Assembly (NCBI RefSeq): GCF_039521325.1
Contig: NZ_BAAACD010000016.1
DNA length: 64,000 nt
Source of the DNA: Clostridium cadaveris
GTDB taxonomy: Bacteria; Bacillota; Clostridia; Clostridiales; Clostridiaceae
Strand: one strand, 5' to 3'
The notes below the pieces were generated by a model. It had not been told where the DNA came from, searched no databases, and saw only the letters and a list, made by a program, of their open reading frames with translations. This document shows, piece after piece, positions 2,723 to 60,353 of this stretch. The first letter of the stretch is position 1; each line of letters starts with the position of its first letter. The position numbers were made by a program, and so were the translations under genes.

Positions 2723-2938
2723 AAAAATTCTCCTTATCTATCTTTAAATGTCTGATTATAACAAATATTTTATCATACCATATGCTCCAATATTATCTAA
2801 ATAATTAAATTATATTTCTATATTTTAATTATAAACATTTTACCCTTAACATTCTTGCTTTCATAAATAATATTTTTTTATTCTGCGGAGAAACTACTAT
2901 AGAAGGAATCCAAATATTTAATGAGGGAGGAATTCTAA

Positions 2939-3109
2939 ATGGATAATAATAAAAATAGAATAAAAGATCGTCCAAAATCTAATGCTGAAATGAGAAAAAT
3001 GTATGCTGAAGCTGGCTCAGAAATAGCCATAGAGCATGGTGAAAAAAGAGGTTCCAATGTAAGCGGAAAGAAATTCACAAAGAGATCAAAATTATCTCAT
3101 AATAAATAG
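2939..3109 (+). CDS. Small basic hypothetical protein (56 aa), possibly spore-associated
   Basis: GGAGG RBS 8 nt upstream of ATG. Translation MDNNKNRIKDRPKSNAEMRKMYAEAGSEIAIEHGEKRGSNVSGKKFTKRSKLSHNK. Immediately followed by a second small ORF with its own RBS. Confidence 0.45.
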   Translation: MDNNKNRIKDRPKSNAEMRKMYAEAGSEIAIEHGEKRGSNVSGKKFTKRSKLSHNK

Positions 3110-3120
3110 GAGGGATAGTA

Positions 3121-3282
3121 ATGAGTGATCATAAATGCTGCGGATGTGATTGTGAAAATAAACATAAAAAAGCTCACGCTGATATTACATCACCAAATTA
3201 TCAACATGAAGTAAATAGTAAAGCTCATAATAAAAGTCCTTATGGAAAGGAAGAACCATCTACTCATACTACTTATAAATAA
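3121..3282 (+). CDS. Small Cys/His-rich hypothetical protein (53 aa)
   Basis: AGGAGGGA RBS precedes the ATG. Translation MSDHKCCGCDCENKHKKAHADITSPNYQHEVNSKAHNKSPYGKEEPSTHTTYK. Forms a two-gene micro-operon with 2939-3109. Confidence 0.45.
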   Translation: MSDHKCCGCDCENKHKKAHADITSPNYQHEVNSKAHNKSPYGKEEPSTHTTYK

Positions 3283-3392
3283 GTGAAGAGTTACGTAGTG
3301 AAAAATGAAGAGTTACGCAAAGAATAGTATAGCTAGATAATTTAAAGTTGGTTATATGATAAATAAATAGATTAATGTTTAAACAATAAAAA

Positions 3393-3440
3393 TCCTATAA
3401 ACTTAACATTTAAATGCTGAGTTTATAGGATTTTATAATA
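3393..3440 (+). terminator. Hairpin downstream of the small-protein pair
   Basis: 12-bp inverted repeat atcctataaact…agtttataggat with a large loop, followed by tttata. Confidence 0.3.
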
Positions 3441-3524
3441 CTATATTTAATTAACTTTTTATACAAAATATGTTATCATTATATTAAATCTCAAAAATTA
3501 ATTTTTCATAAAATTCTTAAGGGG

Positions 3525-3731
3525 TTGATTAATATCAATAATTCAATGAGAGATTTAATAGATGTAATTGTTGGATGTACTACATTGATCTGCGGTTCCA
3601 TACTTATTATTGTTTTTTGGCCTATAGCAATATTAGTTTTGTTACTAGGGCTTCTCCTTTTGATGGGGGATTTAAGCTTATATGACGTTAGAAAAAAATA
3701 TGAAGTTAAAAATAAAGATACTGAAACTTAG
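3525..3731 (+). CDS. Hypothetical small membrane protein
   Basis: 68-aa ORF with a hydrophobic core (ILIIVFWPIAILVLLLGLLLLMG). No clear RBS. Confidence 0.3.
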   Translation: MININNSMRDLIDVIVGCTTLICGSILIIVFWPIAILVLLLGLLLLMGDLSLYDVRKKYEVKNKDTET

Positions 3732-3814
3732 TTGTTTTCAAATATACAATTAATCTTTATAAATTAGAATAAAAAATATAACTGGAAATATTTATTTCCA
3801 GTTATATTTTTTAT

Positions 3815-16020: not shown

Positions 16021-16423
16021 GTTCTTCTCCCTTTCTAATAAAAAAATTTATGCAGTAATCGGGGAAGCACTTGCTGATAAAAAAGAGCAATAGTATAAAT
16101 ATAATACTATTGCTCAAAAATTCTTTTTTAATCTGCAATAGCTCCATCACTTAATAGTGAGAGTACTTGATTTATTAAATCAAATCCCAGATAGATGTGC
16201 TGACATACACACCTTCTTCGGCAATCAACCCTTTCATGAGCTATCTTAGGTCTGTCTACCTCTTTCTCATTACTCTTTTTAACTGCGCCTCTATTTACAT
16301 ACATATTAATTTGTTAACTTGATATTAATCATATAGTAATATTTACTATATCGTCAAGGAATATTGAAAATTTTTTTAATTTTTCACATATTTTTATTTG
16401 TTTTTTAGATATTTTATACAACT
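16021..16423 (-). promoter_or_regulatory. About 400-nt 5' leader of the symporter/amidohydrolase operon containing an intrinsic terminator (16074-16115); candidate riboswitch or attenuator
   Basis: Perfect 11-bp hairpin gagcaatagta…tactattgctc followed by T6 on the minus strand, about 60 nt upstream of the start codon. The long structured leader contains …UUGCCGAAGAAGG…. It does not convincingly match the glycine-riboswitch or T-box consensus. Confidence 0.35.
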
Positions 16424-41878: not shown

Positions 41879-41961
41879 CTTATCTCTTTTTAGGCGGCTA
41901 TTCCCGACTTTTTGTGTTATCTTTTGTCTTGTCTAAAATATTATTAAATAGCCTGTACTAT

Positions 41962-42359
41962 CTATTTAGATATATTGTTAAATGTAAATATTAGTTTATA
42001 TCCGTCAAATGTTACATCATGTTTTTCTTCAAAGTTCCCATTTGTATAGTCGCTAATGGTTTTTCTCCAAAACTTTTCTGCCCTTGGATTTGTTCCTGAT
42101 GGTGCAACATATAATTTCCACTCTCCTAAAAATTTATCAAATATCTGTTTTGCTGCAATGGATGCAATATTCCTTCCTCTGTATGGCCTTAATAAAAAGA
42201 ACTCATAAACATAATGATTATTTTTCCTTATATTGCACCTATATCATGTAATATTGCAGCTATTTTTGCTTCTTCTATAAAATTTTCATCACAACCCAAT
42301 TTATCCAATAAAACTTCAATTATCTTTTGATCACTATTTATTCTTTCAAATCTATTCAT
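41962..42359 (-). pseudogene. Gene remnants: a 43-codon HD-domain N-terminal fragment fused to a start-less GNAT acetyltransferase C-terminal fragment
   Basis: Minus strand encodes MNRFERINSDQKIIEVLLDKLGCDENFIEEAKIAAILHDIGAI*. A +2 frame then has no start codon: …IRKNNHYVYEFFLLRPYRGRNIASIAAKQIFDKFLGEWKLYVAPSGTNPRAEKFWRKTISDYTNGNFEE…. Confidence 0.5.
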
Positions 42360-42431
42360 TACATAATTCCTTTTATTATGATAAATTTAAAAAAGGTTGT
42401 AGTATAAACTACAACCTTTAATAATCAAAAA

Positions 42432-42584
42432 TTATCTTCTATTTTGTTCCTTCTTAGCTCTTCTACAAGCTGGACATCTTGTTGGCTCATTTTCAAATCC
42501 TTTTTCCTTGTAGAATTCTTGCTCTCCTACTGAAAATACGAATTCTGCTCCGCAATCTCTGCATGTTATTGTCTTATCTGTCAT
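42432..42584 (-). CDS. Zinc-ribbon domain protein (50 aa)
   Basis: TAGGAGGAATATTT-ATG RBS. MTDKTITCRDCGAEFVFSVGEQEFYKEKGFENEPTRCPACRRAKKEQNRR carries two CxxC pairs. Confidence 0.6.
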   Translation of the reverse strand: MTDKTITCRDCGAEFVFSVGEQEFYKEKGFENEPTRCPACRRAKKEQNRR

Positions 42585-42827
42585 AAATATTCCTCCTAAA
42601 ATTAAAGATTCTAAATTGATATAATAATCTCTAATTTTCAAGAAACTATTTACCTAAATGAAACTTTTTTTTGTTAGCATTTCGCTACTTATTTAGTATA
42701 TCACAGTATTTATCTAATTGCAATCTTTTTTTGATTGATTTTTATAAACAGTCAAAATTAATTTAATATTTAGCATACTTTACACCTTATCACATTTGTT
42801 ATTGCATTTATTTTATTCATATTATCA

Positions 42828-44071: not shown

Positions 44072-44097
44072 CTCATTTATTTATGATACGGTTCTCC
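44072..44097. repeat. Left direct repeat (att core) of the island
   Basis: Identical 26-mer to 59869-59894. Confidence 0.75.
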
Positions 44098-45501: not shown

Positions 45502-45567
45502 TTATACCCCACCCTTTATATTAAGATTTTAAAAATAGACTAGGAATTCTCCTAATCTATTTTTGTC

Positions 45568-45792
45568 TTATCCTCTAGGTGGGAAATTATCATTACCATA
45601 AGAATCTTTTTCTCTTATTCTTCCGTTTTTTCCATGAATAATAAGTTCTGATTGTTGATTCTTAGCAATTTCTCTAGCAATATTAATAGCTTCTTTTTGT
45701 GTTTTAGTAGTAGCAGTTGCTCTACTATTTCCAGCTCCTTTAACTTGCCAATTTCCTTTTCCATTAGGTGTCACATGTTGATTTTTTTTCAT
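45568..45792 (-). CDS. DUF2188 family protein
   Basis: …GKGNWQVKGAGNSRATATTKTQKEAINIAREIAKNQQSELIIHGKNGRIREKDSYGNDNFPPRG matches the DUF2188 pattern. Confidence 0.6.
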   Translation of the reverse strand: MKKNQHVTPNGKGNWQVKGAGNSRATATTKTQKEAINIAREIAKNQQSELIIHGKNGRIREKDSYGNDNFPPRG

Positions 45793-45862
45793 CTATATTT
45801 TCACTCCTTTTATATGTTATAAAAGGATGACTTGCTCAAACATCCATCTATGAGCTTTTGCT

Positions 45863-45991
45863 CTATTCTACTGGTATTTTAAAAGCCTTTAACCCGTAAG
45901 TTTTAGCATATATTCTTTGTCCATTTTTAGTTATCCAAGGGCGATATATATACTTCTTATCTTCCTTTTCTTTACTCTTATTATTATTCAT
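45863..45991 (-). CDS. Small basic hypothetical protein (42 aa)
   Basis: AGGAGGTG RBS 7 nt before the ATG. Translation MNNNKSKEKEDKKYIYRPWITKNGQRIYAKTYGLKAFKIPVE. The ORF track starts 47 codons upstream without an RBS. Confidence 0.4.
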   Translation of the reverse strand: MNNNKSKEKEDKKYIYRPWITKNGQRIYAKTYGLKAFKIPVE

Positions 45992-46198
45992 GCTAAAACA
46001 CCTCCTTCTTACAAGAATTTTACCTATTATATGTATAATAAGTAAGTTATCCTTGAAAAAAAGCGACATAACTGTTAAAATATTATTTGCAGTAAATTTA
46101 ACAGTGAGCAAGTTAAGTTCGCTATTTTTCAAGAAATGAAGCTATCTAAGCGCCAACTTAGATATCGCTTCATTTTTTATATTAAACGGATTTTCCGT

Positions 46199-46949: not shown

Positions 46950-48647
46950 CTAAATAGTAATATCTAAGTTCAATACACTCATTCCAACATTTCTTAACAT
47001 AAAAGAAGAAGGAGCATCCTTTATAGATACTCCTTCTTCTTTACTTATATAGTCAACCAAGCTATCATTTATCTTCAGTTTTATTGAATCAATTTCTCTT
47101 GTTTCATTTATAGTTATTTCTGATATTATCATATGCAATAACTTCTTCTGTTTCTCTCTACTTGTGCTTTCTGTTAAGACTTTACTAAAATTCTCTAAGA
47201 TACTCTTTATGAATTCATAAGGTACTTCCTCACTTAAATCATCTGAAAGCGTTACAAGTAATGGTTCTTTTTGCTCTTGTAGCATTTTAGCCATCTTGTT
47301 TAGTTCTTCTTTTCTTTCCTTGAACTCCTCCTTGGATATTAAGTCCTCCTCATATCCCTCGAAAAGTTTACGTTTCTTTTTATCTATCTTCTCAAGCTCC
47401 TTATCTATTCTTTGTAGCTCCTTCTTAGCTGGATTTATCTTGTTATGTCTTTCTTCATTAACATTCTTCACTATTGACTTAACCATCTTTTCATTAGAAA
47501 GTAATTCTGATAACTTACTGAATACATACTCATTAGCTTTATCAACTCTTATTGTATTAGAATTACATACGTTTGTACCTTTATTCTTCCATGCTCCACA
47601 ACAGTAGTAAGCTATTCTCTTCTTAGTTCCATCAGCTAACTTATTAGTAGTTCTTGAAATTATCATTCCAGCTCCACACTTTGGACATCTTAGTATCCCA
47701 GTTAATGGATATTCACCATCGTATATCCTTGAAGGCTTACCTTTCTTACTTTCCATAATTGCTTGTACTTTATCCCATAGACTCTCCTCTATTATAGATT
47801 CATGTATTCCATCAGTTATTATTGGATTTGGATTAATATTTCTTCTTCTTTTTTCAGACCAATCTTGTCTCAAATTATATCTTATCTTTCCTATGTACAC
47901 CGGATTAGTTAATATATCTTTTATAGAGACTATTGAAAAATCATTCCCTTTCTTAGTCTTATGCCCTAATTTATTTATCTTATTAGCTATTGCTTTATAT
48001 CCTTTTCCACTAGCATATTCATTAAAAATTATTCTTACAGTTTCTGCTTCTTGTTTATTTATTACAAGTTTAGTGTCTTTTCTTTTCTTATGTTCAGTAC
48101 CTTCAATTGGTACAATATCATATCCTAATACTCGGTTTCCCCCCCAACGCCCTTCTCTTGCTCGTGCTAAGCACACCATTTTTACGTTCTGAGCTATTGT
48201 CCCTCTTTCTAATTCAGCAACTGCTCCCATCATGTGTAATCCAAACTTCCCCATAGGAGTCTCTGTTTCAAAGTTCTCTGAATATGACCTAAAAGCAATT
48301 CCTTTTCTATCTAATACATCTATTATTTCTAGTAAATTTAGCATATTCCTAGCTATTCTACTTATCTTCCAAGTTACTACTATGTCAAATTTTCCCTCCT
48401 CCGCATCTTGTAGCAACTCTTTTAATGCAGGTCTATTTTTAATATTCTTCCCACTAATTCCCCTATCTGAATAGCATTTATAAACTATCCAATCCATAGT
48501 CTTACACCATTCACTTAAAAGCCTTTCTTGGTCATCAATACTATAGCCATCTTACGCTTGTTCTTTTGAACTTACCCTACAGTATATCCCAATACGCTTT
48601 TTTCTTTTCTCCATCATTACATTATGTGCTAAAGTTTTAAAATCCAT
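46950..48647 (-). pseudogene. Ccr-like large serine recombinase (CcrB/CcrC-like) interrupted by an in-frame TAA at codon 32
   Basis: ATG at 48647 with an AAGGAG RBS. Reads MDFKTLAHNVMMEKRKKRIGIYCRVSSKEQA-TAA-DGYSIDDQERLLSEWCKTMDWIVYKCYSDRGISGK…, with the catalytic-Ser motif RVSS upstream of the stop. The downstream body has a resolvase domain, a recombinase domain and a zinc ribbon (CPKCGAGM…YYCCGAWKNKGTNVC) closely resembling staphylococcal CcrB. Confidence 0.75.
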
Positions 48648-51990: not shown

Positions 51991-52296
51991 CTACTCCTTA
52001 CTTCCCTTAAATTTATTATATAAATAGTACCCTATATAACCTATTACTCCTATCATTAAGGCTAGTCTTATTAAAAACCATAGTACAGAAATTACTCCTC
52101 CAACTAGTCCTCCTAGGAAATTAACTATGAAAGCTCCTACTATACAACATCCAACCCACATAGTTATCATAGCTCCAAATCCAAAATGTATAATATCGAA
52201 AATCTTATGTAGTAATATAAATATTCCTGTTCCTATTATTAAAGTAACTATTACTGCTATAATGCTTGTTAATCCACCTGCATCAAAAATATTCAT
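51991..52296 (-). CDS. Hypothetical small membrane protein
   Basis: 101 aa, 3 TM helices. GAGGAG RBS. Its ATG overlaps the stop of the upstream ORF (TAATG). Confidence 0.5.
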   Translation of the reverse strand: MNIFDAGGLTSIIAVIVTLIIGTGIFILLHKIFDIIHFGFGAMITMWVGCCIVGAFIVNFLGGLVGGVISVLWFLIRLALMIGVIGYIGYYLYNKFKGSKE

Positions 52297-52460
52297 TATT
52301 TCTTTTCTCCTCTCTCCCTCTTATTTATCCCATTTTTATTTATTACTTTTTGTAGCCAATTACATGTATATCCTAATTTCCTTGATATCTGTTTTAGGTT
52401 CTTTCCATCATAATACTTATTTAAATAATCAATTACATACTTATCTGAATATAATCTCAT
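52296..52460 (-). CDS. Small HTH-like protein (54 aa); possibly the C-terminal part of a longer ORF that runs to about 52658, separated by an in-frame TAG
   Basis: MRLYSDKYVIDYLNKYYDGKNLKQISRKLGYTCNWLQKVINKNGINKRERGEKK. No RBS of its own. The upstream ORF 52476-52658 is in the same frame with a TAG between them. Confidence 0.35.
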   Translation of the reverse strand: MRLYSDKYVIDYLNKYYDGKNLKQISRKLGYTCNWLQKVINKNGINKRERGEKK

Positions 52461-52887
52461 TGGAAATGTTATCTGCTAACCTTTATAATTCTCATATACT
52501 TTTAATGTTATCTCATGCCCTAAAACTTCAACCATATCCTTATAGATACCTCTGTAATTTTCACTTTTTCTACTCATATCCTCCTTATCCATCATCTCCT
52601 TTTCTATCCCATTCAATATTACCTCCTTTAAAAATTTTTCATAAGATTGAAAAAACAAGTAATTTTACAAGAGAAAATCACTTGTCTTTAATTAAACTTT
52701 GTAATTCATAACTACTTAACTATAATTACTCCTTTCTTAATATTTCTCTATATAAAAAGAGTTAATGCTCCTTTTATTAGAAACATTAACTCTCTTATCA
52801 TATTTATAATATATATTTAATCACATCATTAAAAACATTTGATTTAGCCTTTATTCGTAGCTTTTATTTTGATTGCTATTATTCATT

Positions 52888-52945
52888 CACACTTTCTGAA
52901 ATCTCTGCTTTCTGATGTGTTATCGTTGCTTTTTGATACATTCAT
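52888..52945. repeat. Imperfect direct repeat, copy A (extends to about 90 bp at roughly 85% identity)
   Basis: ttcacactttctgaaatctctgctttctgatgtgttatcgttgctttttga pairs with 53899-53956, ttcacattttctgaaatctctgttttctgatgtgctatcgttgctttttga. Confidence 0.6.
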
Positions 52946-52959
52946 ATTAATTGGTAGAT

Positions 52960-53520
52960 TAAATTTAACTTATATTTTTAATGATTTAATTTTATGTTAT
53001 GATTAGTTGCTATCTATGACTTATTAGTATCTATTCTTATTACACTATCATTTTATCTTTTCTTATCTCTATCTACCATTGATTATTATTTCATCCATTA
53101 ATTAGAGTTTCTTTATTCTATTATTATTACTTAGGATAGTTATTATTTCTTTATTAGTTCTTATCATTACTACATCTGATTAGTTATCTTAGTATTATTA
53201 CTCTAATTATCTTACTCAATTAACTTAATGAATTATCAATCTTTGATTATTATACTTCTTGATATTCTTATTATAGTTTTTACTTGATTACTTATCTTAG
53301 TAAATATTATTATTCTAATTACATCTATTAATTATTACTACAATTCTTAATTGATTATAATTTCTTTATCCTACTATCATATCTGATTAATTATATTATT
53401 TTTCTTATTCTGATTATAGTTAATTCTTATCAATCTATACTTCTTTATTACTTTATTCTTATTATCTTTTCTTCTATTCTATCTTTATTTTAATTGAAAT
53501 AGATTTTTAGTAATCTATTT
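52960..53520. repeat. G-depleted (about 6% G on the plus strand), about 80% AT, non-coding low-complexity tract with dispersed (c/t)tgatta and tcttat motifs
   Basis: Direct count of G per 60-nt line is 1-8. No ORF of 60 aa or more in any frame. A second similar tract lies at 53957-54215. Confidence 0.55.
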
Positions 53521-53530
53521 CAATTCTTAT
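53494..53530 (+). terminator. Perfect 11-bp hairpin followed by a T-rich run (plus-strand terminator-like)
   Basis: ttgaaatagat/ttttagta/atctatttcaa then ttcttattttt. Confidence 0.35.
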
Positions 53531-53546
53531 TTTTCTTTAGTCTCTT

Positions 53547-53560
53547 CCCCCCCTCCCCCC
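53547..53560. repeat. Homopolymeric tracts C7-T-C6
   Basis: cttccccccctccccccgtcgc. The only GC-rich spot in a roughly 1.4-kb AT-rich non-coding segment. Confidence 0.7.
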
Positions 53561-53898
53561 GTCGCTTTTTACAAGCTCCGTGTTCTCAGTGCCTCTATCC
53601 TAGTTCCAAGCTTCATTATTTATATGTTTTAGCTCTCTCATTTTTTTTATTTTTGAGTGGAATTGATTTATCCGCTACATATTTTATGTTCCCGATTCTC
53701 TTTGATTTCAAGTGGAATTAGGAACGGTAGGATTTCCTATGCTTTCAGCTTTCGGTATTCCTTTATGCCTTGTTATACTAGATTGTAAAGTTATCAATCT
53801 ACTCTCTACTATGAATTTCAGTACCTTTTCATCAGTTCATCTGAAAACCGTCGATTTAACCTCTATTTACAGCTTTTCAATTTTGGTGCTATTCTTAT

Positions 53899-53956
53899 TC
53901 ACATTTTCTGAAATCTCTGTTTTCTGATGTGCTATCGTTGCTTTTTGAGGTATTCC
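53899..53956. repeat. Imperfect direct repeat, copy B
   Basis: See copy A. The copies are about 1010 bp apart. Confidence 0.6.
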
Positions 53957-54216
53957 TCCAACTGAATGACTAGGATTCTCTATTACATTTCTAATCTTTC
54001 AAGTAAAAGTATCTATTATTATTTTCTTGTGCTTATAACTTCTTATTTCTCTTTTCTTTATTACTCACTTCTTAATTTCTTAACTTATAAGCATTAGTAT
54101 TTATTAACTACTAAAAAAATATATTCTTAACTTATTATAATAATATCGTTATAATCAAGTTATTATTTCTTAATTATAACGATACTATCTTTCTTAACTT
54201 ATTACTTCTTTATTTA

Positions 54217-54300
54217 CTACTTCTTATTTATTGCTTCTACAGAAGTTGCTACAACTGTTAATATTGTTCCAACTACTTTGATTACTGCTATAACATCCAT
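54217..54300 (-). CDS. Candidate small hydrophobic peptide (27 aa), translationally coupled to the upstream gene
   Basis: GGAGGAG RBS overlaps the stop of 54313-54660. MDVIAVIKVVGTILTVVATSVEAINKK is a hydrophobic helix with a charged tail. Confidence 0.4.
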   Translation of the reverse strand: MDVIAVIKVVGTILTVVATSVEAINKK

Positions 54301-54312
54301 TAATTTCTCCTC

Positions 54313-54660
54313 CTATCTTTTATAAGTGTATATATATGAATAGCTATCTAGCACGGGTATTAACTTCACTACATATTTACCTTCTTCAAGCTCTATATAT
54401 ACTAAAGTTTCTTTATCATAGCTTGTACCATTGCAAAGCTCTACAACTTTATTAAATTCTTTTATCAATGTAAATTGAATATAGTTGAGCTCTTCTTGTA
54501 ACCTCTTTAGGTCTATTTCCTTTTTATTATTTAATTCTATTATTAGCTCTCTTGGATTCCATTGATTAGCAAGTCTTCCATCATAAAAATCGAAACGCAT
54601 TACTCCTAGAAGTTCTTTACTGTCATAATTAAATATCTTTTCCTTACTTAATGTATTCAT
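54313..54660 (-). CDS. Hypothetical protein (island cargo)
   Basis: 115-aa ORF. Confidence 0.5.
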   Translation of the reverse strand: MNTLSKEKIFNYDSKELLGVMRFDFYDGRLANQWNPRELIIELNNKKEIDLKRLQEELNYIQFTLIKEFNKVVELCNGTSYDKETLVYIELEEGKYVVKLIPVLDSYSYIYTYKR

Positions 54661-54677
54661 TATTTACCACTCCTTAA

Positions 54678-54986
54678 TTAGTATTCTGATGGTAGAAGCA
54701 TAGTTGAATATTCTACACTATCAATTACATAGATTTTAATACCATAATCTATCTGAATATCTTCTAGCTCTATTTCATATGTGCATGAGTATTCAGGAAC
54801 TTCTTGACTTTGATTTATTACAACCTTATTTCCTTCTTTTCTTATCTTGAAAACTTGTAAGTAATCTAGTTCAATATTTTCTTCATCATTCAATTTATCA
54901 ATCATACTCCACATTATAATTTGTAGTATTATGTCTACTTCCTCATTTATACCTCTAGTTACATACCTATTATTTTTCTTGAACAT
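54678..54986 (-). CDS. DUF960 family protein
   Basis: MFKKNNRYVTRGINEEVDIILQIIMWSMIDKL… This family is typically found in Firmicute ICEs and in SCC ccr-region backbones. Confidence 0.55.
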   Translation of the reverse strand: MFKKNNRYVTRGINEEVDIILQIIMWSMIDKLNDEENIELDYLQVFKIRKEGNKVVINQSQEVPEYSCTYEIELEDIQIDYGIKIYVIDSVEYSTMLLPSEY

Positions 54987-55893: not shown

Positions 55894-57657
55894 TTAATAC
55901 CTTATTGTAAACTCTGAATTATTAAACATATCTCTTTCTAATTCCTCAACAGTCATTTCTCCTGACTTTATTTTTTCAGCTCCAAGCAATAAATTTACCA
56001 CATTAACAGCCGCACCATTAACTCCAGTACTCATACTTAATCTTCTTAATTGTTCTTCAAACTTACCCTTAAACGAACCAGATATAAATACAAAATAATA
56101 TTTTTGAACCTCTTCTGAAAAGTTTTCCCACCATTTATTAGGATTTATTTGCTCGTCTCTGTTAGAATTTTCTCTTACATACCTTTCCATCTCATCTGCT
56201 TGACTTATAGGCAAACTATATCCTTCCGAATATGCCTTAGTATCTACAATAATCCCAAAATTATCCTCTAAAGTCGTAGAATATACTATACCATCAGGTT
56301 TTCTACTTCCCCCGAGATGTCTACCCTTAAATCCATATTCATTAACTAATAATTCCAACACTTTCATTTCAAATAGTCTATTTTGCTTACTATCAAATGC
56401 TAAGTCTATTAATGATAGGTAATCATGAGAAATATTAGTTATTTGCTCTCTTAGCTCATCTTTCAACAAACTAATTTTGCTCTTTATCTCTTCTGCATCT
56501 CCTAACTTAGGTATAATAAAATCATTAATGGTATCATACATCTTATAACCTTTAGTCTCACTCTTAATATTTATCCCTGTATTAATTAATCCATTAATAT
56601 CGTCTTTAATAGTACTAATAGATTCATTAATATTAGCTAATTTTAACTTATCTTTTATATTCTCTAAAGTTAATACTTTACTAGTTTCAATTAATATTTT
56701 TAAAATATACGACCTTCTAGTTCTTATATAATTTTTGTCTATCCCTTTTGTAGCAAACATTTCCCAAAAAACATTTTTCGAAACTCTAGCTACTTTATTT
56801 ATTCCTAATAATCTTCTAACTGCTTTTAGACCCTTATCTGTAATCATATAAGCATGTCCTATCGTTTCACTATACATTTCTCCACCAAAATTTACAGTAA
56901 CTAACTTAGGTCTTTGTACCAATAACCCTAGTTTCACTAGCCACCCTGAAATCATCCTAGCATATTTGTCTGATGACCCATCCCAATCAGTTTTAATTTT
57001 ATTTTTTTCCTTTGGGTCATCAGTAGTAGCTAATGTCATAATTAGTACATTTAATGGTAAGCTTGTAAATCCTGCTTCTCCAGTAAAACCCAATTTCTTA
57101 CCTATCTCATATTTTGTTAAGTGCTCTCCATTAGAAAGTAATGTTAAAACTCTTGCTACTGGTGGATATGATAACATCGCTTCTTCTAAAATTATGTTTT
57201 CTTCTTGACTACCATCTTCACTTTGTACATATCTTTTCCCTAGCTCTGATATCTCAAATGTATCTGTATCATAGTTATATTTAATAAACCCTAATGCATG
57301 TGCCCATCTAACAAAATTATCTGATGACCAATCATCTATAAACTCCTTTCTTTGACCCTTTACAGTTGCTTGTACTATTGCATTACATCGTGCAGAACTT
57401 CTTGGCGTAAAGGATGTGCCAACTAACTTGTAATACTCTATCTTTAAAGGATTTACGCTTAATGCATTTATTAACTCCTTTTGACCATCTCTTTCTTCTA
57501 CTAATTTCTTTATTCTCTTATCTCTTAACTCGATATGTATCTTTGATGTGTTATCAAAAATGGAGACAACTTTTTTTAAACTTTCAAAATTACTTGGATT
57601 TTGAACCCAGCCAAAAGTTCTAATAGTTTTATTATTTACATCTATTATCTTAATCAT
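55894..57657 (-). CDS. Type IIS restriction endonuclease, FokI family
   Basis: 587 aa, colinear with FokI. Shared blocks: IRTFGWVQNP, WSSD.F.RWAHALGFI, SYPP…ILTLL, KYARMI.GWL.KLGL, RTRR..IL.ILI, KGLINTGI. Cleavage domain EMKV.E…YG..G.HLGGSRKPDG.IY…G.IVDTKAYS.GY.LPI.QADEM.RYV.EN…INPN.WW. Confidence 0.9.
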   Translation of the reverse strand: MIKIIDVNNKTIRTFGWVQNPSNFESLKKVVSIFDNTSKIHIELRDKRIKKLVEERDGQKELINALSVNPLKIEYYKLVGTSFTPRSSARCNAIVQATVKGQRKEFIDDWSSDNFVRWAHALGFIKYNYDTDTFEISELGKRYVQSEDGSQEENIILEEAMLSYPPVARVLTLLSNGEHLTKYEIGKKLGFTGEAGFTSLPLNVLIMTLATTDDPKEKNKIKTDWDGSSDKYARMISGWLVKLGLLVQRPKLVTVNFGGEMYSETIGHAYMITDKGLKAVRRLLGINKVARVSKNVFWEMFATKGIDKNYIRTRRSYILKILIETSKVLTLENIKDKLKLANINESISTIKDDINGLINTGINIKSETKGYKMYDTINDFIIPKLGDAEEIKSKISLLKDELREQITNISHDYLSLIDLAFDSKQNRLFEMKVLELLVNEYGFKGRHLGGSRKPDGIVYSTTLEDNFGIIVDTKAYSEGYSLPISQADEMERYVRENSNRDEQINPNKWWENFSEEVQKYYFVFISGSFKGKFEEQLRRLSMSTGVNGAAVNVVNLLLGAEKIKSGEMTVEELERDMFNNSEFTIRY

Positions 57658-57737
57658 ATATATTCCTCCATAAATTCATATATATATATTTTATCATATA
57701 TATAAAAAAAAAGAAGAATATACTATTTTGTATATTC

Positions 57738-59735
57738 TTAGTAATTAGTTATCAATACCTCTTCACTTTTTCCTTTTTTTGTATTATAACTTGAATTAGA
57801 GTAATCATGATTAAGATTATTAATATTATATTTTTTACTCCACTCTTTTAATATATTATTGCTCTTCCCTTTATGCTCTAATACATTTGATAAAGCAAAC
57901 TTAATCCCTTTCTCATTAGCTTTATCCAGATATTCTAACAACATAACTTCTTCATTTTCAGTCCAATTTTTAAAACCTCTATTTCCGTCATTATATGAGC
58001 CTGTAGTAATCAAATATGGAGGGTCACAATAAATAAAGCTATTTTTATCTAAGTTATCAAATGATACATCAATAAAATCATTGCATGTAAAACTTATATT
58101 CTTACTATGCATACTCTTTAAAAATTCAATTAAGTTCCCTTTAAGAACCGATGAAAATTGACTTCTATTTCTTCCAAATGGATTATTGTATTCAAAATTT
58201 TTATTAAATCTAAATTGGTAATTAAAGGAGTAACATACTAAAGTATATAAATCTAATGGCATTTTTGTTTTATTATAATACTCTCTAAATGCCTTAAATC
58301 CATCTTCATTTTCCTTTGTTAATTTAAACTCTTTTATTCTATTCTCAATATAATTTAATATATATTCATCAGTATTATTTTTAAATTCATTAAATAATTC
58401 TATCACAAAATTATTATAATCGTTGCATATTATATTTTTTGCCTCAACATTAATTCCTACATTGCATCCTCCTGCAAATAAGTCTACAAATGTTTCTATT
58501 TTTTTAGGAAACATAGGTATTATCTGATTTAGTAACTTATACTTACCACCAATGTAGTTTAAAGGACTTTTTATATATTTTTTCTTTTGTTTTCCTTTAT
58601 ATTTGTTTACGTTACATTTGCATATTTCATTTTTTTTACTTTTATCTTCTTGTACACTATCACTTTGCTTTCTGATATAAAAAATCAACTCATATAATTC
58701 TATAATTTTTTGCTCATGTTTACTCTTATATTTTCTATATGGTATCTTATACAATTTAAATGTCTCTTCAACCCCGTACTTTTTCAATATTTGTTCTATT
58801 TCATCAGAAGACATTAAGCCATCTGTACTATAACTAACGATTATATGTTTAAAATTAGAATCTTTGATTAGTGACTCAAAAGAATCTTTTACTTGCTTTT
58901 TGTTACAATATTTAGACTTTTGATTTTCATAATTTCTTAAACCAGTTACTCCATATAGCTCTGGATAATCATATTTAGCTATAGTCTCCAAAACATGATA
59001 GTTAGGTACATATTGTCTTGAGTTGTACGGTGGGTCTAAATATAAAATATCCCCTTTAATTTTTTTTATTAATTCATTAGCATCTTCATTAAAGCATCTA
59101 TTCTCTCTCTCATTGTCTATTACCTCTAATTTTTTTAACTCAATCTTATTTAAAGCTCTTTTATCCCATTTCTTTAAATATGCTCCATAAGTCCCTGATA
59201 TATTTGATACATATGGTATTCCTTCAAGTAAACAAGCTAATAAATATGCATATTCATTAAAATCTATAATATTATCTCTTTTCCACTCATCTAGCTTAAC
59301 TCTTATAAAATCTATCCTATTAGCATTTTCTTTGGTTATATACATTCTATTAGATTTATTGCTAGGTGCGTAATGATTACTTGCAAAATATACTCTATCA
59401 TTAAAATTAATATCGCTAATATCAAATGTTTCTAAATAATTTATAGGGTCATCTATGCCAATACTTTTTAATTTAATAAATTCAGGAATTTTATTATTCT
59501 CTACTGTTGCTTTCTGTAATATATAAGAAAAATACATCAAATCGTTAGAGTATACTTGATAATATTCCTTGAAATATCTAGCTACAGTTCCTGTTCCTGA
59601 AAAAATATCGCAAAAAGTGTTAGCTTTATCACTAACATTCTCGTCTATTACTTCTTTTATCTTATCTAACAATAAGACTTTACTTCCTATATATCTCATA
59701 TCTTCTATCTCCTCATTTCTTACATCCCTAAACAT
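57738..59735 (-). CDS. Type IIS modification methyltransferase, M.FokI-like (two fused N6-adenine MTase domains)
   Basis: 665 aa with two DPPY motifs (LYLDPPYNSRQY and IYCDPPYLITTGSYNDGNRGFK). The C-terminus …KKGKSEEVLITNY is near-identical in pattern to M.FokI. Confidence 0.9.
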   Translation of the reverse strand: MFRDVRNEEIEDMRYIGSKVLLLDKIKEVIDENVSDKANTFCDIFSGTGTVARYFKEYYQVYSNDLMYFSYILQKATVENNKIPEFIKLKSIGIDDPINYLETFDISDINFNDRVYFASNHYAPSNKSNRMYITKENANRIDFIRVKLDEWKRDNIIDFNEYAYLLACLLEGIPYVSNISGTYGAYLKKWDKRALNKIELKKLEVIDNERENRCFNEDANELIKKIKGDILYLDPPYNSRQYVPNYHVLETIAKYDYPELYGVTGLRNYENQKSKYCNKKQVKDSFESLIKDSNFKHIIVSYSTDGLMSSDEIEQILKKYGVEETFKLYKIPYRKYKSKHEQKIIELYELIFYIRKQSDSVQEDKSKKNEICKCNVNKYKGKQKKKYIKSPLNYIGGKYKLLNQIIPMFPKKIETFVDLFAGGCNVGINVEAKNIICNDYNNFVIELFNEFKNNTDEYILNYIENRIKEFKLTKENEDGFKAFREYYNKTKMPLDLYTLVCYSFNYQFRFNKNFEYNNPFGRNRSQFSSVLKGNLIEFLKSMHSKNISFTCNDFIDVSFDNLDKNSFIYCDPPYLITTGSYNDGNRGFKNWTENEEVMLLEYLDKANEKGIKFALSNVLEHKGKSNNILKEWSKKYNINNLNHDYSNSSYNTKKGKSEEVLITNY

Positions 59736-59868: not shown

Positions 59869-59894
59869 CTCATTTATTTATGATACGGTTCTCC
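59869..59894. repeat. Right direct repeat (att core) overlapping the rlmH 3' end
   Basis: Identical 26-mer to 44072-44097. On the minus strand it encodes …GEPYHK*. Confidence 0.75.
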
Positions 59895-60353
59895 CTTAAT
59901 TATCCTAAATCCTCTATATATCTGTTCTAGAAGCATAACTCTGAATAGTTGGTGTGGAAATGTCATTTTTGAGAAACATAATTTATAGCTTGCTCTATTT
60001 AAAACATCTTGTGAAAGTCCAAGGCTTCCTCCTATAATAAATACTAGATTTGAGTTACCTTGTATGCCACAGTTATCTATGAAATATGAAAATTCCTCTG
60101 AGGAAAGTGTCTTTCCTTTTAGATCCATAGCTATTACATAGGCATTATCTTTGATTTTTGATAGGATTTGGGCCCCTTCCTTTTCTTTAATTTGAAGTTC
60201 TTCCTTTTCTGAAGCATTATCTGGTGTTTTTTCATCTGCCACTTCTATAACTTCAAGTTTGCAGTATTTGCTTAATCTTTTTGAGTACTCATCTATAGCA
60301 TCTCTTAAGAATTTTTCTTTTATTTTTCCTACTGTTATAAGGGTTATATTCAT
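59874..60353 (-). CDS. rlmH: 23S rRNA (pseudouridine1915-N3)-methyltransferase RlmH (the orfX equivalent)
   Basis: 159-aa SPOUT MTase. …IIGGSLGLSQDVLNRASYKLCFSKMTFPHQLFRVMLLEQIYRGFRIIKGEPYHK. Confidence 0.9.
   Translation of the reverse strand: MNITLITVGKIKEKFLRDAIDEYSKRLSKYCKLEVIEVADEKTPDNASEKEELQIKEKEGAQILSKIKDNAYVIAMDLKGKTLSSEEFSYFIDNCGIQGNSNLVFIIGGSLGLSQDVLNRASYKLCFSKMTFPHQLFRVMLLEQIYRGFRIIKGEPYHK

What the first reader, a model, noticed from the sequence alone, without database searches (positions are those of the whole stretch)
52880..54300. About 1.4 kb of non-coding, strongly strand-asymmetric (G-depleted) AT-rich DNA with diverged direct repeats, poly-C tracts and a hairpin, inside the island
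There is no ORF of 60 aa or more in any frame for about 1 kb. The plus strand is about 6% G and about 80% A+T, so the minus-strand transcript would be essentially C-free. The tract is sprinkled with (c/t)TGATTA, TCTTAT and ATTATT motifs at irregular spacing. Two diverged direct repeats of 60-90 bp lie 1010 bp apart, and each is followed by a G-poor tract, suggesting an ancient tandem duplication of about 1 kb. The only GC-rich spot is C7-T-C6 next to a perfect 11-bp hairpin plus T-run. This composition cannot fold into a GC-paired structured RNA. The candidate explanations are listed here.
- An iteron-like or protein-binding array such as an origin, a partition site or a nucleoid-associated site.
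- A phase-variable homopolymer switch.
- A decayed, G-less remnant.
- A long unstructured RNA.
None of these is a standard feature class.
Basis: seen in the sequence. Interest (0 to 1): 0.7.

Follow-up and report, generated by a model that had tools for sequence, protein, structure and literature searches.

The report
Conserved non-coding spacer in clostridial island
The flagged 1.4 kb is a real gene-poor stretch that recurs in a family of mobile islands of Clostridium; it is a patchwork of a missed 27-codon gene, RNA hairpins, a terminator, a shared promoter-like block and junk-like A/T-rich filler, not one exotic element.

Summary
There are 1654 nt (52659-54312) with no long gene, two ~125-nt direct repeats 1012 nt apart, a C7-T-C6 run and a perfect hairpin, and independent assemblies reproduce the stretch exactly. 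The composition is not special: intergenic DNA throughout this window is G-poor on the plus strand. Only the size, the AT content and the T-over-A excess stand out.

The stretch lies inside an SCC-like island inserted at rlmH. More than 60 related Clostridium islands carry it in the same place, between a DUF960/115-aa operon and a Mor-family regulator gene, with lengths from 220 to 1650 nt.

It is modular:
- a missed 27-codon ORF;
- three hairpins that fold as RNA on the minus strand, one of them a strong intrinsic terminator;
- two copies of a conserved repeat;
- a palindrome-rich, promoter-like block with a conserved G-run.

That block also sits between toxin/immunity cassettes elsewhere in Clostridium.

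The G-poor AT-rich tracts themselves are not conserved in sequence, are full of indels and are riddled with short duplications, so they look like filler.

My best reading is an intergenic control and untranslated-RNA region. I found no good support for an origin, a phase switch or a decayed gene. No mechanism has been shown.

The parts
54217..54300 (-). Unannotated 27-codon ORF (MDVIAVIKVVGTILTVVATSVEAINKK), with a GAGGAG Shine-Dalgarno sequence, directly after the 115-aa gene
   Evidence: Read. Its length is invariant at 27 aa, and only conservative substitutions occur across more than 40 loci. Identity to the distant clade is 0.87 against about 0.65 at fourfold-degenerate sites. No Pfam or NCBIfam family matches.
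54139..54189 (-). M2: 21-bp hairpin downstream of the sORF. The U-run lies about 25 nt further on, not adjacent.
   Evidence: Free energy -22.7 kcal/mol, z -5.8. Three pairs change on both sides (GC/AU, UA/CG twice). G.U cells 15 against A.C 1 in 19 distinct sequences.
53956..54138 (.). Tract B: A-rich on the minus strand, G-poor on the plus strand; low-complexity spacer
Evidence: It contains short degenerate tandem arrays. Identity to the distant clade is 0.39-0.51, so it is effectively unalignable.
53827..53955 (-). DR2: upstream copy (in gene orientation) of the conserved ~125-nt repeat
   Evidence: There are always 1 or 2 copies per island, always on the gene strand. A possible long-range stem is 92% paired against 35-55% for slid controls, but covariation is not significant and the fold is no more stable than shuffles.
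53653..53826 (-). M5 block. It holds two AATTCCACT repeats (53656-53664, 53710-53719), the palindrome TAGGAAATCCTA (53728-53739), the near-palindrome ACATA(T/A)AATATGT (53677-53689) and TTGAAA-N19-TA(T/A)AAT.
   Evidence: Alignments. Few indels across clades. The same core occurs upstream of toxin cassettes and, tandemly repeated, upstream of a D5-type helicase gene in sister islands.
53541..53652 (-). M6 block: the conserved box ATAAAACATATAAATAATG, GGA-rich roughly 7-nt repeats, and the G6-A-G7 run (53547-53560, seen as C7-T-C6 on the plus strand)
   Evidence: A pair of G-runs (G5-7, 1-3 nt, G5-7) is present in all island clades and in most of the toxin-locus copies that extend that far. One relative (L029) carries an extra 7-nt unit.
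53492..53525 (-). M7: perfect 14-bp hairpin with a 6-nt loop
   Evidence: Free energy -13.8 kcal/mol, z -7.4. Identity across clades 0.80-0.86. G.U cells 5 against A.C 1. On the minus strand it is followed by A-rich sequence, not by U.
52950..53490 (.). Tract A: 541 nt, 81.7% AT, 5.5% G on the plus strand.
   Evidence: Identity to the distant clade is 0.58-0.63 with 24-58% gaps. Length varies from about 260 to 540 nt among close relatives. It holds internal degenerate repeats. No periodicity.
52816..52943 (-). DR1: downstream copy of the repeat
   Evidence: Identity across clades 0.78-0.81 with no gaps. The distance to M10 is fixed at 138-140 nt in 11 loci.
52802..52818 (-). Invariant AT box AAATATATATTATAAAT between DR1 and the terminator
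   Evidence: Invariant in 13 aligned loci except for A-to-G at its second base in two of them (L020, L049). Its function is unknown; it could be a -10-like element or a protein site.
52751..52796 (-). M10: intrinsic terminator on the minus strand, a 17-bp stem followed by UUUUU
   Evidence: Free energy -22.6 kcal/mol, z -7.3. In 26 distinct sequences there are 396 Watson-Crick, 40 G.U and 0 A.C cells, and one pair is U.G in 22 of 26. The same hairpin precedes M5 in toxin loci.
52649..52685 (-). Possible second, weaker terminator-like hairpin plus a T-run, just before the Mor-family gene
   Evidence: Free energy -11 kcal/mol for the 58-nt stretch, z -2.2. A similar sequence is seen in L025. Not tested further.
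52296..52658 (-). Context: the Mor-family regulator gene immediately downstream, interrupted by an in-frame TAG at 52476-52478
   Evidence: ORFs. The joined translation matches PF08765 Mor at 31 bits (cut-off 24.9), with the match spanning the stop. Intact 87-94-aa Mor genes occupy this position in sister islands.

Best explanation
The stretch is the intergenic control and untranslated-RNA region of a family of clostridial SCC-like islands. These islands carry a large serine recombinase and insert at the 3' end of rlmH or near smpB. The stretch is a mosaic rather than a single element.

Reading along the minus strand, which is the gene strand:
1. The DUF960/115-aa operon ends with a missed 27-codon ORF and a long hairpin (M2).
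2. An A-rich spacer leads to the first copy of a conserved ~125-nt repeat (DR2).
3. Next comes M5-M6, a palindrome-rich, promoter-like DNA block that ends in GGA repeats and two G-runs. This is a portable module: elsewhere in Clostridium it sits directly upstream of toxin cassettes or of a primase-helicase gene.
4. Hairpin M7 follows, then a long A-rich filler tract.
5. Then come the second repeat copy (DR1), an invariant AT box and a strong intrinsic terminator (M10), just before the Mor-family regulator gene.

Inferred mechanism: minus-strand transcription, either read-through from the upstream operon or initiation in M5, crosses the untranslated C-poor tracts and stops at M10. This would insulate or gate expression of the Mor/recombinase module.

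Shown: the modular anatomy, its conservation, and the strand on which the hairpins fold. Inferred: promoter activity, transcript extent and any regulatory role.

For: Context. The exact 21-bp repeat of the rlmH 3' end lies at 44077-44097 and 59874-59894. The island carries a serine recombinase, DUF960 and a FokI-type restriction-modification pair.

Conserved position. The same gene order with a gene-free gap of 220-1650 nt is seen in C. tertium, C. paraputrificum, C. perfringens, C. botulinum, Hathewaya and many metagenome contigs.

Module maps. Long, single-repeat and perfringens-type forms are mapped.

Constraint. Against fourfold-site identity of about 0.65, DR1 is at 0.8, M7 at 0.80-0.86, M10 at 0.85-0.90 and the sORF at 0.87. 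DR2, M5 and M6 are at 0.68-0.75 with under 3% gaps (apart from one sub-clade with a ~66-nt deletion and one 7-nt insertion). The tracts are at 0.4-0.6 with 12-58% gaps. Lengths are fixed: DR1 to M10 is 138-140 nt, and DR2 to M7 is about 496 nt in most loci.

RNA strand. For M2, M7 and M10 the G.U cells number 15, 5 and 40 against A.C cells of 1, 1 and 0. M2 has compensatory pairs. All three hairpins are very stable, and M10 carries a U-run.

Portability of M10-M5-M6. The unit is found in C. butyricum megaplasmids and in metagenome toxin/immunity arrays, always in the orientation of the downstream gene.

Tracts as filler. Short degenerate arrays, a clade-specific TGATTA enrichment and no periodicity.
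Against: - There are no expression data, so promoter, transcript ends and termination are all inferred.
- The only sigma-70-like match in M5 has a 19-nt spacer, and the promoter scan did not pick it up.
- The repeat's RNA stem has no significant covariation and no excess stability, so it may act at the DNA level instead.
- M7 has no U-run on the minus strand.
- Many sister islands manage with a 220-385-nt gap that lacks most modules, so the long form is dispensable.
- The window's own Mor gene carries a stop codon, so this copy of the island may be decaying.
- M5-M6 conservation is only slightly above synonymous-site level.
Confidence: 0.45

Rival explanations
1. Replication origin of the excised circular island. 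The M5 repeats and palindromes would be initiator-binding iterons, and the neighbouring 82% AT tract would be the unwinding element. A D5/P4-type primase-helicase encoded by sister islands, or supplied in trans, would use it.
For: - In L026, L027 and L061 the M5 core is tandemly repeated (155-nt unit, 2-3 copies) right upstream of a gene with D5_N, DUF5906 and Pox_D5 domains.
- L087 has both the full non-coding region and the helicase.
- M5 contains direct repeats and DNA palindromes whose loops are too short for RNA hairpins.
- From my own knowledge: some SCC-type elements carry replication genes. One paper (PMC10061031) describes such islands downstream of rlmH or in ssrA.
Against: - The helicase and the M5 core do not co-occur. 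Seven helicase-bearing loci lack the M5 core (L020, L025, L033, L034, L037, L040, L049). Most M5-bearing islands, including the window's, have no helicase.
- M5 also lies upstream of toxin cassettes on megaplasmids, always oriented with the downstream gene, as a promoter would be.
- The AT tract is far longer than a typical unwinding element and is not conserved.
- The TGATTA array is irregular and clade-specific.
Confidence: 0.15
2. Mostly functionless debris. A recombination accident left a toxin-cassette leader (M5-M6) and a duplicated repeat inside the island. The AT-rich tracts are slippage-generated junk, and nothing between the sORF hairpin and M10 does anything.
For: - The tracts are unconstrained and rich in indels and full of short duplications.
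- The long form is dispensable. L019 and L025 look like repeat-by-repeat deletions of the 1-kb unit within the same clade, and other islands have gaps of 220-385 nt.
- An IS sits inside the region in L038.
- The window's Mor gene is broken.
- In C. butyricum p-TJ, M6's ATG and G-run are read as the N-terminus of an orphan toxin cassette, MEFGKRNRGGGGGESTITAG.
Against: - DR1, M7, M10 and the AT box are clearly more conserved than synonymous sites.
- The DR2-to-M7 unit keeps its length (496 nt) across clades that are only about 70% identical.
- The hairpins show strand-specific wobble and compensatory change.
- The two-repeat form persists in two diverged clades and in many metagenome contigs.
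Confidence: 0.25
3. Type I toxin-antitoxin-like stabilisation module. The 27-aa hydrophobic peptide would be a membrane toxin, and an antisense or overlapping small RNA from the adjacent non-coding DNA would control it, with the repeats providing RNA-RNA contacts. The model is par of pAD1.
For: - A conserved 27-aa peptide with a hydrophobic core and a charged KK tail.
- A long conserved hairpin immediately downstream.
- The sORF stays linked to the non-coding region even in islands that lack the 115-aa gene.
- Direct repeats lie nearby.
Against: - The sORF is the last cistron of an operon and has its own Shine-Dalgarno sequence; it is not a stand-alone gene.
- No convergent promoter or antisense RNA is evident.
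- The repeats lie 250-1400 nt away and are in direct, not complementary, orientation.
- No family match.
- L026-type islands keep the sORF with only a 274-nt gap and no repeats.
Confidence: 0.08
4. Phase-variable switch. Slippage in the C7/C6 (G6/G7) runs would turn something on and off.
For: - Two long homopolymer runs are conserved in position across all clades and in toxin-locus copies.
- Run lengths differ between clades, from G5 to G7.
Against: - The runs are not inside a conserved ORF. The short ATG-initiated frames differ between relatives and L029 has a 7-nt insertion.
- They are not between recognisable -35 and -10 elements.
- They are identical in the two independent assemblies that cover them.
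- Conservation of both runs and their spacer points to a sequence or structure role rather than to instability.
Confidence: 0.04

Closest known systems
SCC-type cassette chromosome elements (SCCmec and relatives; rlmH or ssrA islands with large serine recombinases)
   Same: The element inserts at the 3' end of rlmH and duplicates it. It carries a large serine recombinase, a DUF960 gene among a cluster of small genes, restriction-modification cargo, and, in some sister islands, a D5/P4-type helicase. PMC10061031 describes such islands outside staphylococci.
   Different: To my knowledge, no counterpart of this 0.7-1.65-kb non-coding module has been described in staphylococcal SCC. The gene order differs and there is a single recombinase gene. 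Excision and integration were not tested.
Inter-cassette regions of polymorphic toxin / orphan toxin-immunity arrays (PMC3482391 for the system class)
   Same: The M10 hairpin, M5, M6 with its G-run and, in L090 and L069, an A-rich tract lie between toxin/immunity cassettes (HNH, PT-HINT-like, LXG-like). These are in C. butyricum megaplasmids and in gut metagenome contigs.
   Different: In the island no toxin gene follows. The block leads only into filler, a second repeat and a terminator. I found no description of such a shared non-coding unit in the papers searched.
Immunity leader of satellite phage P4 (CI RNA with seqA/seqB/seqC); from my own knowledge
   Same: A long untranslated leader with repeated sequence elements and premature termination lies upstream of the regulatory or replication genes of an integrated satellite-like element.
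   Different: The P4 repeats are complementary to the CI RNA. Here the two repeats are direct, and no complementary third element was found. There is no sequence similarity and no Rfam match.
par locus of pAD1 (Fst/RNA I-RNA II type I toxin-antitoxin); from my own knowledge
   Same: A small hydrophobic peptide ORF, a nearby strong hairpin, and direct repeats in non-coding DNA of a Gram-positive mobile element.
   Different: The sORF is co-operonic. No convergent RNA gene is evident. The repeats are distant from the sORF. There is no family match.
Iteron origins of phage-inducible islands and of P4 (SaPI ori, P4 ori/crr); from my own knowledge
   Same: Repeated motifs next to AT-rich DNA. In L026-type islands the repeats abut a D5-type helicase gene.
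   Different: The motif and the helicase do not co-occur across the family. The motif is always oriented with the downstream gene. The AT tract is not conserved.

Membership tests
Intrinsic (Rho-independent) terminator: M10, 52751-52796, minus strand | A stable stem-loop immediately followed by a U-run on the transcribed strand | tested here: met
   17-bp stem, -22.6 kcal/mol, z -7.3, followed by UUUUU. The simple scan missed it, probably because its pair and loop criteria are stricter than the fold's.
Intrinsic (Rho-independent) terminator: M10 | The hairpin is kept as RNA on that strand (wobble pairs tolerated, compensatory change) | tested here: met
   396 Watson-Crick, 40 G.U and 0 A.C cells in 26 distinct sequences, with one GC-to-AU and one UA-to-CG double change.
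Intrinsic (Rho-independent) terminator: M10 | Transcript 3' ends map there | not testable with these tools
   No expression data are available.
Iteron-type replication origin | Several initiator-binding repeats, conserved among relatives | tested here: not met
   TGATTA sites in tract A are irregularly spaced (27-97 nt) and absent from the sister clade. M5 has only two AATTCCACT copies in the window.
Iteron-type replication origin | Linked to, or co-occurring with, an initiator gene | tested here: not met
   There is no helicase or rep gene in the window's island. Across about 90 loci the M5 core and the D5-type helicase mostly occur apart.
Iteron-type replication origin | Supports replication | not testable with these tools
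   This needs a plasmid replication assay.
Phase-variable homopolymer switch | The tract lies in an ORF or between -35 and -10 of a promoter | tested here: not met
   There is no conserved reading frame across the runs and no promoter hexamers flank them.
Phase-variable homopolymer switch | Length varies among close relatives or within a population | tested here: inconclusive
   Identical in L003 and L004. G5-G7 differences occur only between diverged clades. No read-level data.
Pseudogene / decayed coding remnant | Relatives carry an intact ORF at the homologous position | tested here: not met
   None in more than 60 related loci. The only ORFs found there are an IS transposase in L038 and insertions in L007 and L024.
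Pseudogene / decayed coding remnant | Residual 3-nt periodicity or protein similarity | tested here: not met
   No 3-nt periodicity above shuffles. Stops are dense in all three minus-strand frames. A partial exception: the M6 ATG and G-run align with the annotated start of a C. butyricum orphan toxin ORF.
Known structured RNA family (Rfam 15) | Match to a covariance model | tested here: not met
   There is no match at gathering score in the window apart from a lysine riboswitch elsewhere. The only hit at E up to 10 is a chance miRNA match. Related loci give nothing relevant.
Type I toxin-antitoxin | A small hydrophobic peptide gene | tested here: met
   A 27-aa conserved peptide with a hydrophobic core and a KK tail.
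Type I toxin-antitoxin | A cognate antisense or overlapping RNA with its own promoter | tested here: inconclusive
   No convincing plus-strand promoter near 54100-54300. No expression data.
SCC-like element (context) | Insertion at the 3' end of rlmH with a flanking direct repeat, plus a large serine recombinase | tested here: met
   The exact 21-bp repeat, 2 copies against 0.01 expected. The recombinase has Resolvase, Recombinase and Zn_ribbon_recom domains. rlmH has the SPOUT_MTase domain.
   Self-comparison finds only the ~122-nt repeat plus weak low-complexity matches.

The most novel reading that the evidence does not exclude
The terminator hairpin, M5, M6 with its G-run, hairpin M7, the A-rich tract and the flanking ~125-nt repeats could together form an undescribed, portable non-coding cassette-boundary element of Clostridium mobile DNA. 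It would be shared by SCC-like islands and polymorphic-toxin arrays. It could serve as a docking or homology site for exchanging cassettes. Alternatively, it could produce a long C-poor regulatory RNA whose GGA-rich heptamer repeats and G-runs titrate an RNA-binding protein or the ribosome.
Probability: 0.15. Interest if true: 0.65.

Novelty: new member of a known kind. Interest (0 to 1): 0.35.

Why it matters
If the reading is right, the practical gains are modest.

- It defines a previously unannotated 27-codon gene.
- It defines a set of conserved non-coding modules that mark a widespread family of SCC-like islands in gut and pathogenic Clostridium (C. perfringens, C. botulinum, C. tertium, C. 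paraputrificum).
- It shows that part of this non-coding DNA is shared with toxin/immunity cassette arrays.

That sharing hints at how regulatory or recombination modules travel between mobile elements. It also gives a handle for studying how such islands control their recombinase module.

It does not reveal a new class of element. The feature that drew attention, G depletion, is the normal intergenic composition of this genome.

Tried and rejected
- **Rfam.** Gathering and permissive thresholds on the window and on related loci gave nothing relevant.
- **tRNA/tmRNA.** None.
- **BLASTN against phages.** No match.
- **BLASTN against plasmids.** Only the two C. butyricum hits that opened the toxin-locus lead.
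- **Viral-contig scans** with repeat and M6 patterns returned chance matches only, so the element is not phage-borne in IMG/VR.
- **Whole-block folds** of 53530-53960 on both strands were not convincing: z -1.4 and -2.4.
- **Consensus folding of the DR2-to-M7 unit** gave little structure beyond M7.
- **Two alternative helices in the repeat** were counted. Both are compatible, and neither is supported by covariation.
- **Periodicity analysis** for DNA bending or coding was negative.
- **The idea that the repeats are extra copies of the rlmH attachment site** was rejected. The rlmH 3' end occurs only at the island ends, and the repeat core occurs only twice.
- **Diversity-generating retroelement.** The mismatches between the repeats are not A-specific and there is no reverse transcriptase.
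- **M5 as the helicase's origin** was downgraded after the co-occurrence test.
- **Family searches** (PHROGs, NCBIfam, Pfam) on the island's small proteins gave no functional clue beyond DUF960 and Mor.
- **Literature searches** found no description of this non-coding region.
Full report
**1. What is in the sequence**

Between the 115-aa gene (54313-54660, minus strand) and the next minus-strand ORF (52476-52658) lie 1654 nt. They hold no ORF of 60 aa or more on the gene strand. This is the largest gap in the window.

- The direct repeats are real. 52885-52943 and 53897-53955 are 90% identical and 1012 nt apart. The similarity extends to about 122 nt at 82%. The 26-nt core occurs twice against 0.00 expected.
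- C7-T-C6 lies at 53547-53560.
- The hairpin is 14 bp and perfect: 53492-53505 pairs with 53512-53525.
- Two independent SRA assemblies reproduce 2401 nt of the region at 100%, so it is not an assembly artefact.

**2. Composition**

Nearly all genes of the window are on the minus strand, and the plus strand is G-poor throughout (G 11.1%, C 18.5%). The other intergenic regions have G of 4-12% and, with one exception, GC skew of -0.07 to -0.68. Tract A's skew of -0.39 is only the 12th percentile of same-size windows.

So the strand asymmetry is background. What stands out is the length, the AT content and the T-over-A excess (AT skew -0.28).

TGATTA is enriched in tract A, 8 copies against 0.76 expected. 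No 3-nt or 10-11-nt periodicity is present.

**3. Context**

- The 3' end of rlmH (59874-60353) is repeated exactly (21 bp) at 44077-44097.
- Between the two copies lie a large serine recombinase (46950-48497), a DUF960 protein (54678-54986) and a FokI-type endonuclease with its D12 methylase.
- This is therefore an SCC-like island of about 15.8 kb. Islands of this type outside staphylococci, at rlmH or ssrA, are described in PMC10061031.

**4. Relatives**

The 115-aa protein has more than 300 homologues in Clostridium. I examined the following loci:
- loci fetched through homologues of the 115-aa protein;
- 31 genome loci;
- 38 metagenome loci.

The related islands among them share one order: [112 aa][~101 aa][DUF960][115 aa], then a gene-free gap, then a Mor-family gene and further genes up to the serine recombinase. 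The gap measures 220-385, about 690-760, or 1270-1650 nt.

None of the related loci has an intact long ORF in the gap. The exceptions are obvious insertions, for example an ISL3-like IS in L038.

The gene-strand composition is the same everywhere: about A 0.48, T 0.27, G 0.16, C 0.08.

**5. Modules, in gene orientation**

Sources.

- **M1** is a 27-codon ORF with a GAGGAG ribosome-binding site (54217-54300). Its length is invariant, and only conservative substitutions occur in more than 40 loci.
- **M2** is a 21-bp hairpin (54139-54189).
- **Tract B** follows.
- **DR2** (53827-53955) is the first copy of the repeat.
- **M5** (53653-53826) holds two AATTCCACT repeats, the palindrome TAGGAAATCCTA, the near-palindrome ACATATAATATGT and a TTGAAA-N19-TATAAT arrangement.
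- **M6** (53541-53652) holds the invariant box ATAAAACATATAAATAATG, GGA-rich repeats of about 7 nt, and two G-runs. The runs are conserved in all island clades.
- **M7** is the perfect hairpin.
- **Tract A** follows.
- **DR1** (52816-52943) is the second copy of the repeat.
- **An AT box**, AAATATATATTATAAAT, is almost invariant.
- **M10** (52751-52796) is a 17-bp hairpin followed by UUUUU.

There are also shorter forms:
- Single-repeat forms (L019, L025) lack M5 to tract A. They look like deletions between the two repeats, because their tract B is about 90% identical to the window's.
- The perfringens-type form has one repeat, M6, a short A-rich tract and M10.

A profile of the repeat finds one or two copies per island, always on the gene strand and nowhere else in the window.

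**6. Constraint**

I compared the window with the distant clade (L021 and relatives). Fourfold-degenerate sites of the 115-aa gene are about 0.65 identical. Against that yardstick:

| Module | Identity | Gaps |
|---|---|---|
| sORF | 0.87 | none |
| M10 | 0.85-0.90 | few |
| M7 | 0.80-0.86 | few |
| DR1 | ~0.80 | none |
| DR2, M5, M6 | 0.68-0.75 | under 3% in most loci |
| Tracts A and B | 0.4-0.6 | 12-58% |

Identity of 0.4-0.6 is about what unrelated A-rich sequence would give.

- Lengths are fixed where sequence is constrained. DR1 to M10 is 138-140 nt in 11 loci, and DR2 to M7 is 496 nt in most loci.
- Tract A varies from about 260 to 540 nt even among close relatives.
- It contains many short degenerate tandem arrays and dispersed internal repeats.
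- The TGATTA enrichment occurs only in the window's own clade. I therefore attribute it to local duplication rather than to selection for binding sites.

**7. RNA or DNA, and which strand**

M2, M7 and M10 are far more stable than shuffled sequence, with z of -5.8, -7.4 and -7.3. In non-redundant sets of 19, 15 and 26 sequences, the pairs that depart from Watson-Crick are G.U in 15, 5 and 40 cells. They are A.C in only 1, 1 and 0 cells. M2 has three pairs with compensatory double changes.

G.U on the minus strand would be A.C on the plus strand. These hairpins are therefore kept as RNA on the window's minus strand, and M10 with its U-run is a classical intrinsic terminator.

The repeat could form a long-range stem. 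That stem is 92% paired against 35-55% for slid controls. It lacks significant covariation and excess stability, so I do not claim an RNA structure for it.

M5 contains palindromes whose loops would be 1-2 nt. That fits protein binding to DNA, not RNA folding. Consensus folding of DR2 to M7 gave little beyond M7. Rfam has no matching family.

**8. The same non-coding unit elsewhere**

- BLASTN found 53598-53758 in two C. butyricum megaplasmids, in arrays of polymorphic-toxin and immunity genes.
- There, an M10-like hairpin is followed directly by M5 and M6, and then by a toxin gene or orphan cassette.
- In p-TJ the annotated ORF starts at M6's ATG and reads the G-run as glycines: MEFGKRNRGGGGGESTITAG. 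The pCBU1 HNH toxin has GGESTITAGE internally.
- A metagenome scan with the M5 core gave 38 loci. Most are islands of the family described here. Eight are toxin/immunity arrays or other contexts with the same unit, and two of these (L090, L069) also have an A-rich tract after it.
- In L026, L027 and L061 the M5 core is tandemly repeated (155-nt unit) just upstream of a primase-helicase gene with D5_N, DUF5906 and Pox_D5 domains.
- In every case M5 points the same way as the downstream gene.
- Across all loci the helicase and M5 mostly occur apart. That argues against M5 being that helicase's origin. It favours a portable terminator-plus-promoter/operator module.
- The patterns are absent from viral contigs except for chance matches.

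**9. Interpretation**

The flagged stretch is the intergenic control and untranslated region of this island family, assembled from modules of different kinds.

Shown:
- the modular anatomy;
- its conservation in position and, for some modules, in sequence and length;
- the strand of the RNA hairpins;
- the presence of a missed small gene;
- the sharing of M10-M5-M6 with toxin arrays.

Inferred:
- Minus-strand transcripts, from the upstream operon or from M5, run through the untranslated A-rich tracts and end at M10.
- This would insulate or gate the Mor/recombinase module.
- The tracts are filler. Their C-poverty on the transcript is the genome's normal intergenic bias. It might incidentally make poor Rho-loading sites, which is speculation.

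In the window itself the Mor-family gene carries an in-frame TAG at 52476-52478. Joined across that stop, the two ORFs match PF08765. This copy of the island may therefore be partly defunct.

**10. Rivals**

- A replication origin remains possible but is weakened by the co-occurrence test.
- Pure debris fits the tracts but not DR1, M7, M10 or the length-constrained DR2-to-M7 unit.
- A type I toxin-antitoxin reading of the sORF lacks an antisense partner.
- A phase switch lacks a target.

Confidence in the mosaic control-region reading is moderate (0.45), because no expression data exist.

**11. Verdict**

The finding is real but less strange than described. The composition is ordinary for this genome. 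The eye-catching tracts are the least conserved part. The interesting content is the sORF, the repeats, M5-M6, M7 and M10, which is a new but conventional kind of intergenic regulatory mosaic. Its sharing with toxin-cassette arrays is the most original point and deserves a transcriptomic follow-up.

Noticed in passing
window 44077-44097 and 59874-59894; 46950-48497; 55894-59735: The 'island' is an SCC-like element of about 15.8 kb. It is bounded by an exact 21-bp repeat of the rlmH 3' end. It carries a large serine recombinase, a DUF960 gene and a FokI-type restriction-modification pair.
   Followed up: partly
window 52296-52658 (minus); stop at 52476-52478: The Mor-family regulator gene just downstream of the non-coding region is split by an in-frame TAG. 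The joined product matches PF08765 across the stop, and sister islands have intact genes. It is either a pseudogene or needs read-through.
   Followed up: partly
window 54217-54300 (minus): A conserved 27-codon ORF encoding a hydrophobic peptide with a KK tail falls below usual gene-calling thresholds. It stays linked to the non-coding region even in islands that lack the 115-aa gene.
   Followed up: partly
window 16131-16301 (minus): Lysine riboswitch, 94 bits, the only Rfam match at gathering score in the window.
   Followed up: no
L026 8040-8470; also L027 and L061: A ~155-nt unit containing the M5 core is tandemly repeated (2.6 copies in L026) just upstream of a primase-helicase gene with D5_N, DUF5906 and Pox_D5 domains in sister islands.
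   Followed up: partly
L001 3561-4000 (C. butyricum pCBU1) versus L002 4019: The reading frame of the pCBU1 HNH toxin continues about 440 nt upstream of its annotated start, up to the M6 region. Compared with p-TJ, a 4-nt difference removes the ATG, so the annotated start may be wrong or the gene may be N-terminally damaged.
   Followed up: partly
L038 6848-8095: An ISL3-like transposase gene (415 aa, opposite strand) is inserted between M6 and M10 of the non-coding region.
   Followed up: no
L005 and L006; many hits: Many metagenome contigs carrying the 115-aa gene are only about 0.6-2 kb long. Two of the window-identical contigs end inside the non-coding region (at window ~53580 and ~54074). 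This suggests that assemblers often break at these repeats or homopolymers.
   Followed up: no
window 2723-3814, 41879-42827, 45502-46198: Other stretches of about 0.7-1.1 kb without an ORF of 90 aa or more. The first has the opposite skew (G above C) to the rest of the window. Not examined.
   Followed up: no
L090 3817-3927 (minus): A sub-threshold Rfam match to STnc490 (43.9 bits against a gathering score of 56, E 1.3e-5) lies in a toxin/immunity array contig, away from the element studied.
   Followed up: no
L025 6470-6600: In Hathewaya proteolytica the M2 hairpin is replaced by a different hairpin. There, G-runs (GGGGGCAAAGGGGG) pair with a downstream CCACCTATCCCCC followed by a T-run. The C-rich arm is also nearly complementary to the G-run motif of M6.
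   Followed up: no
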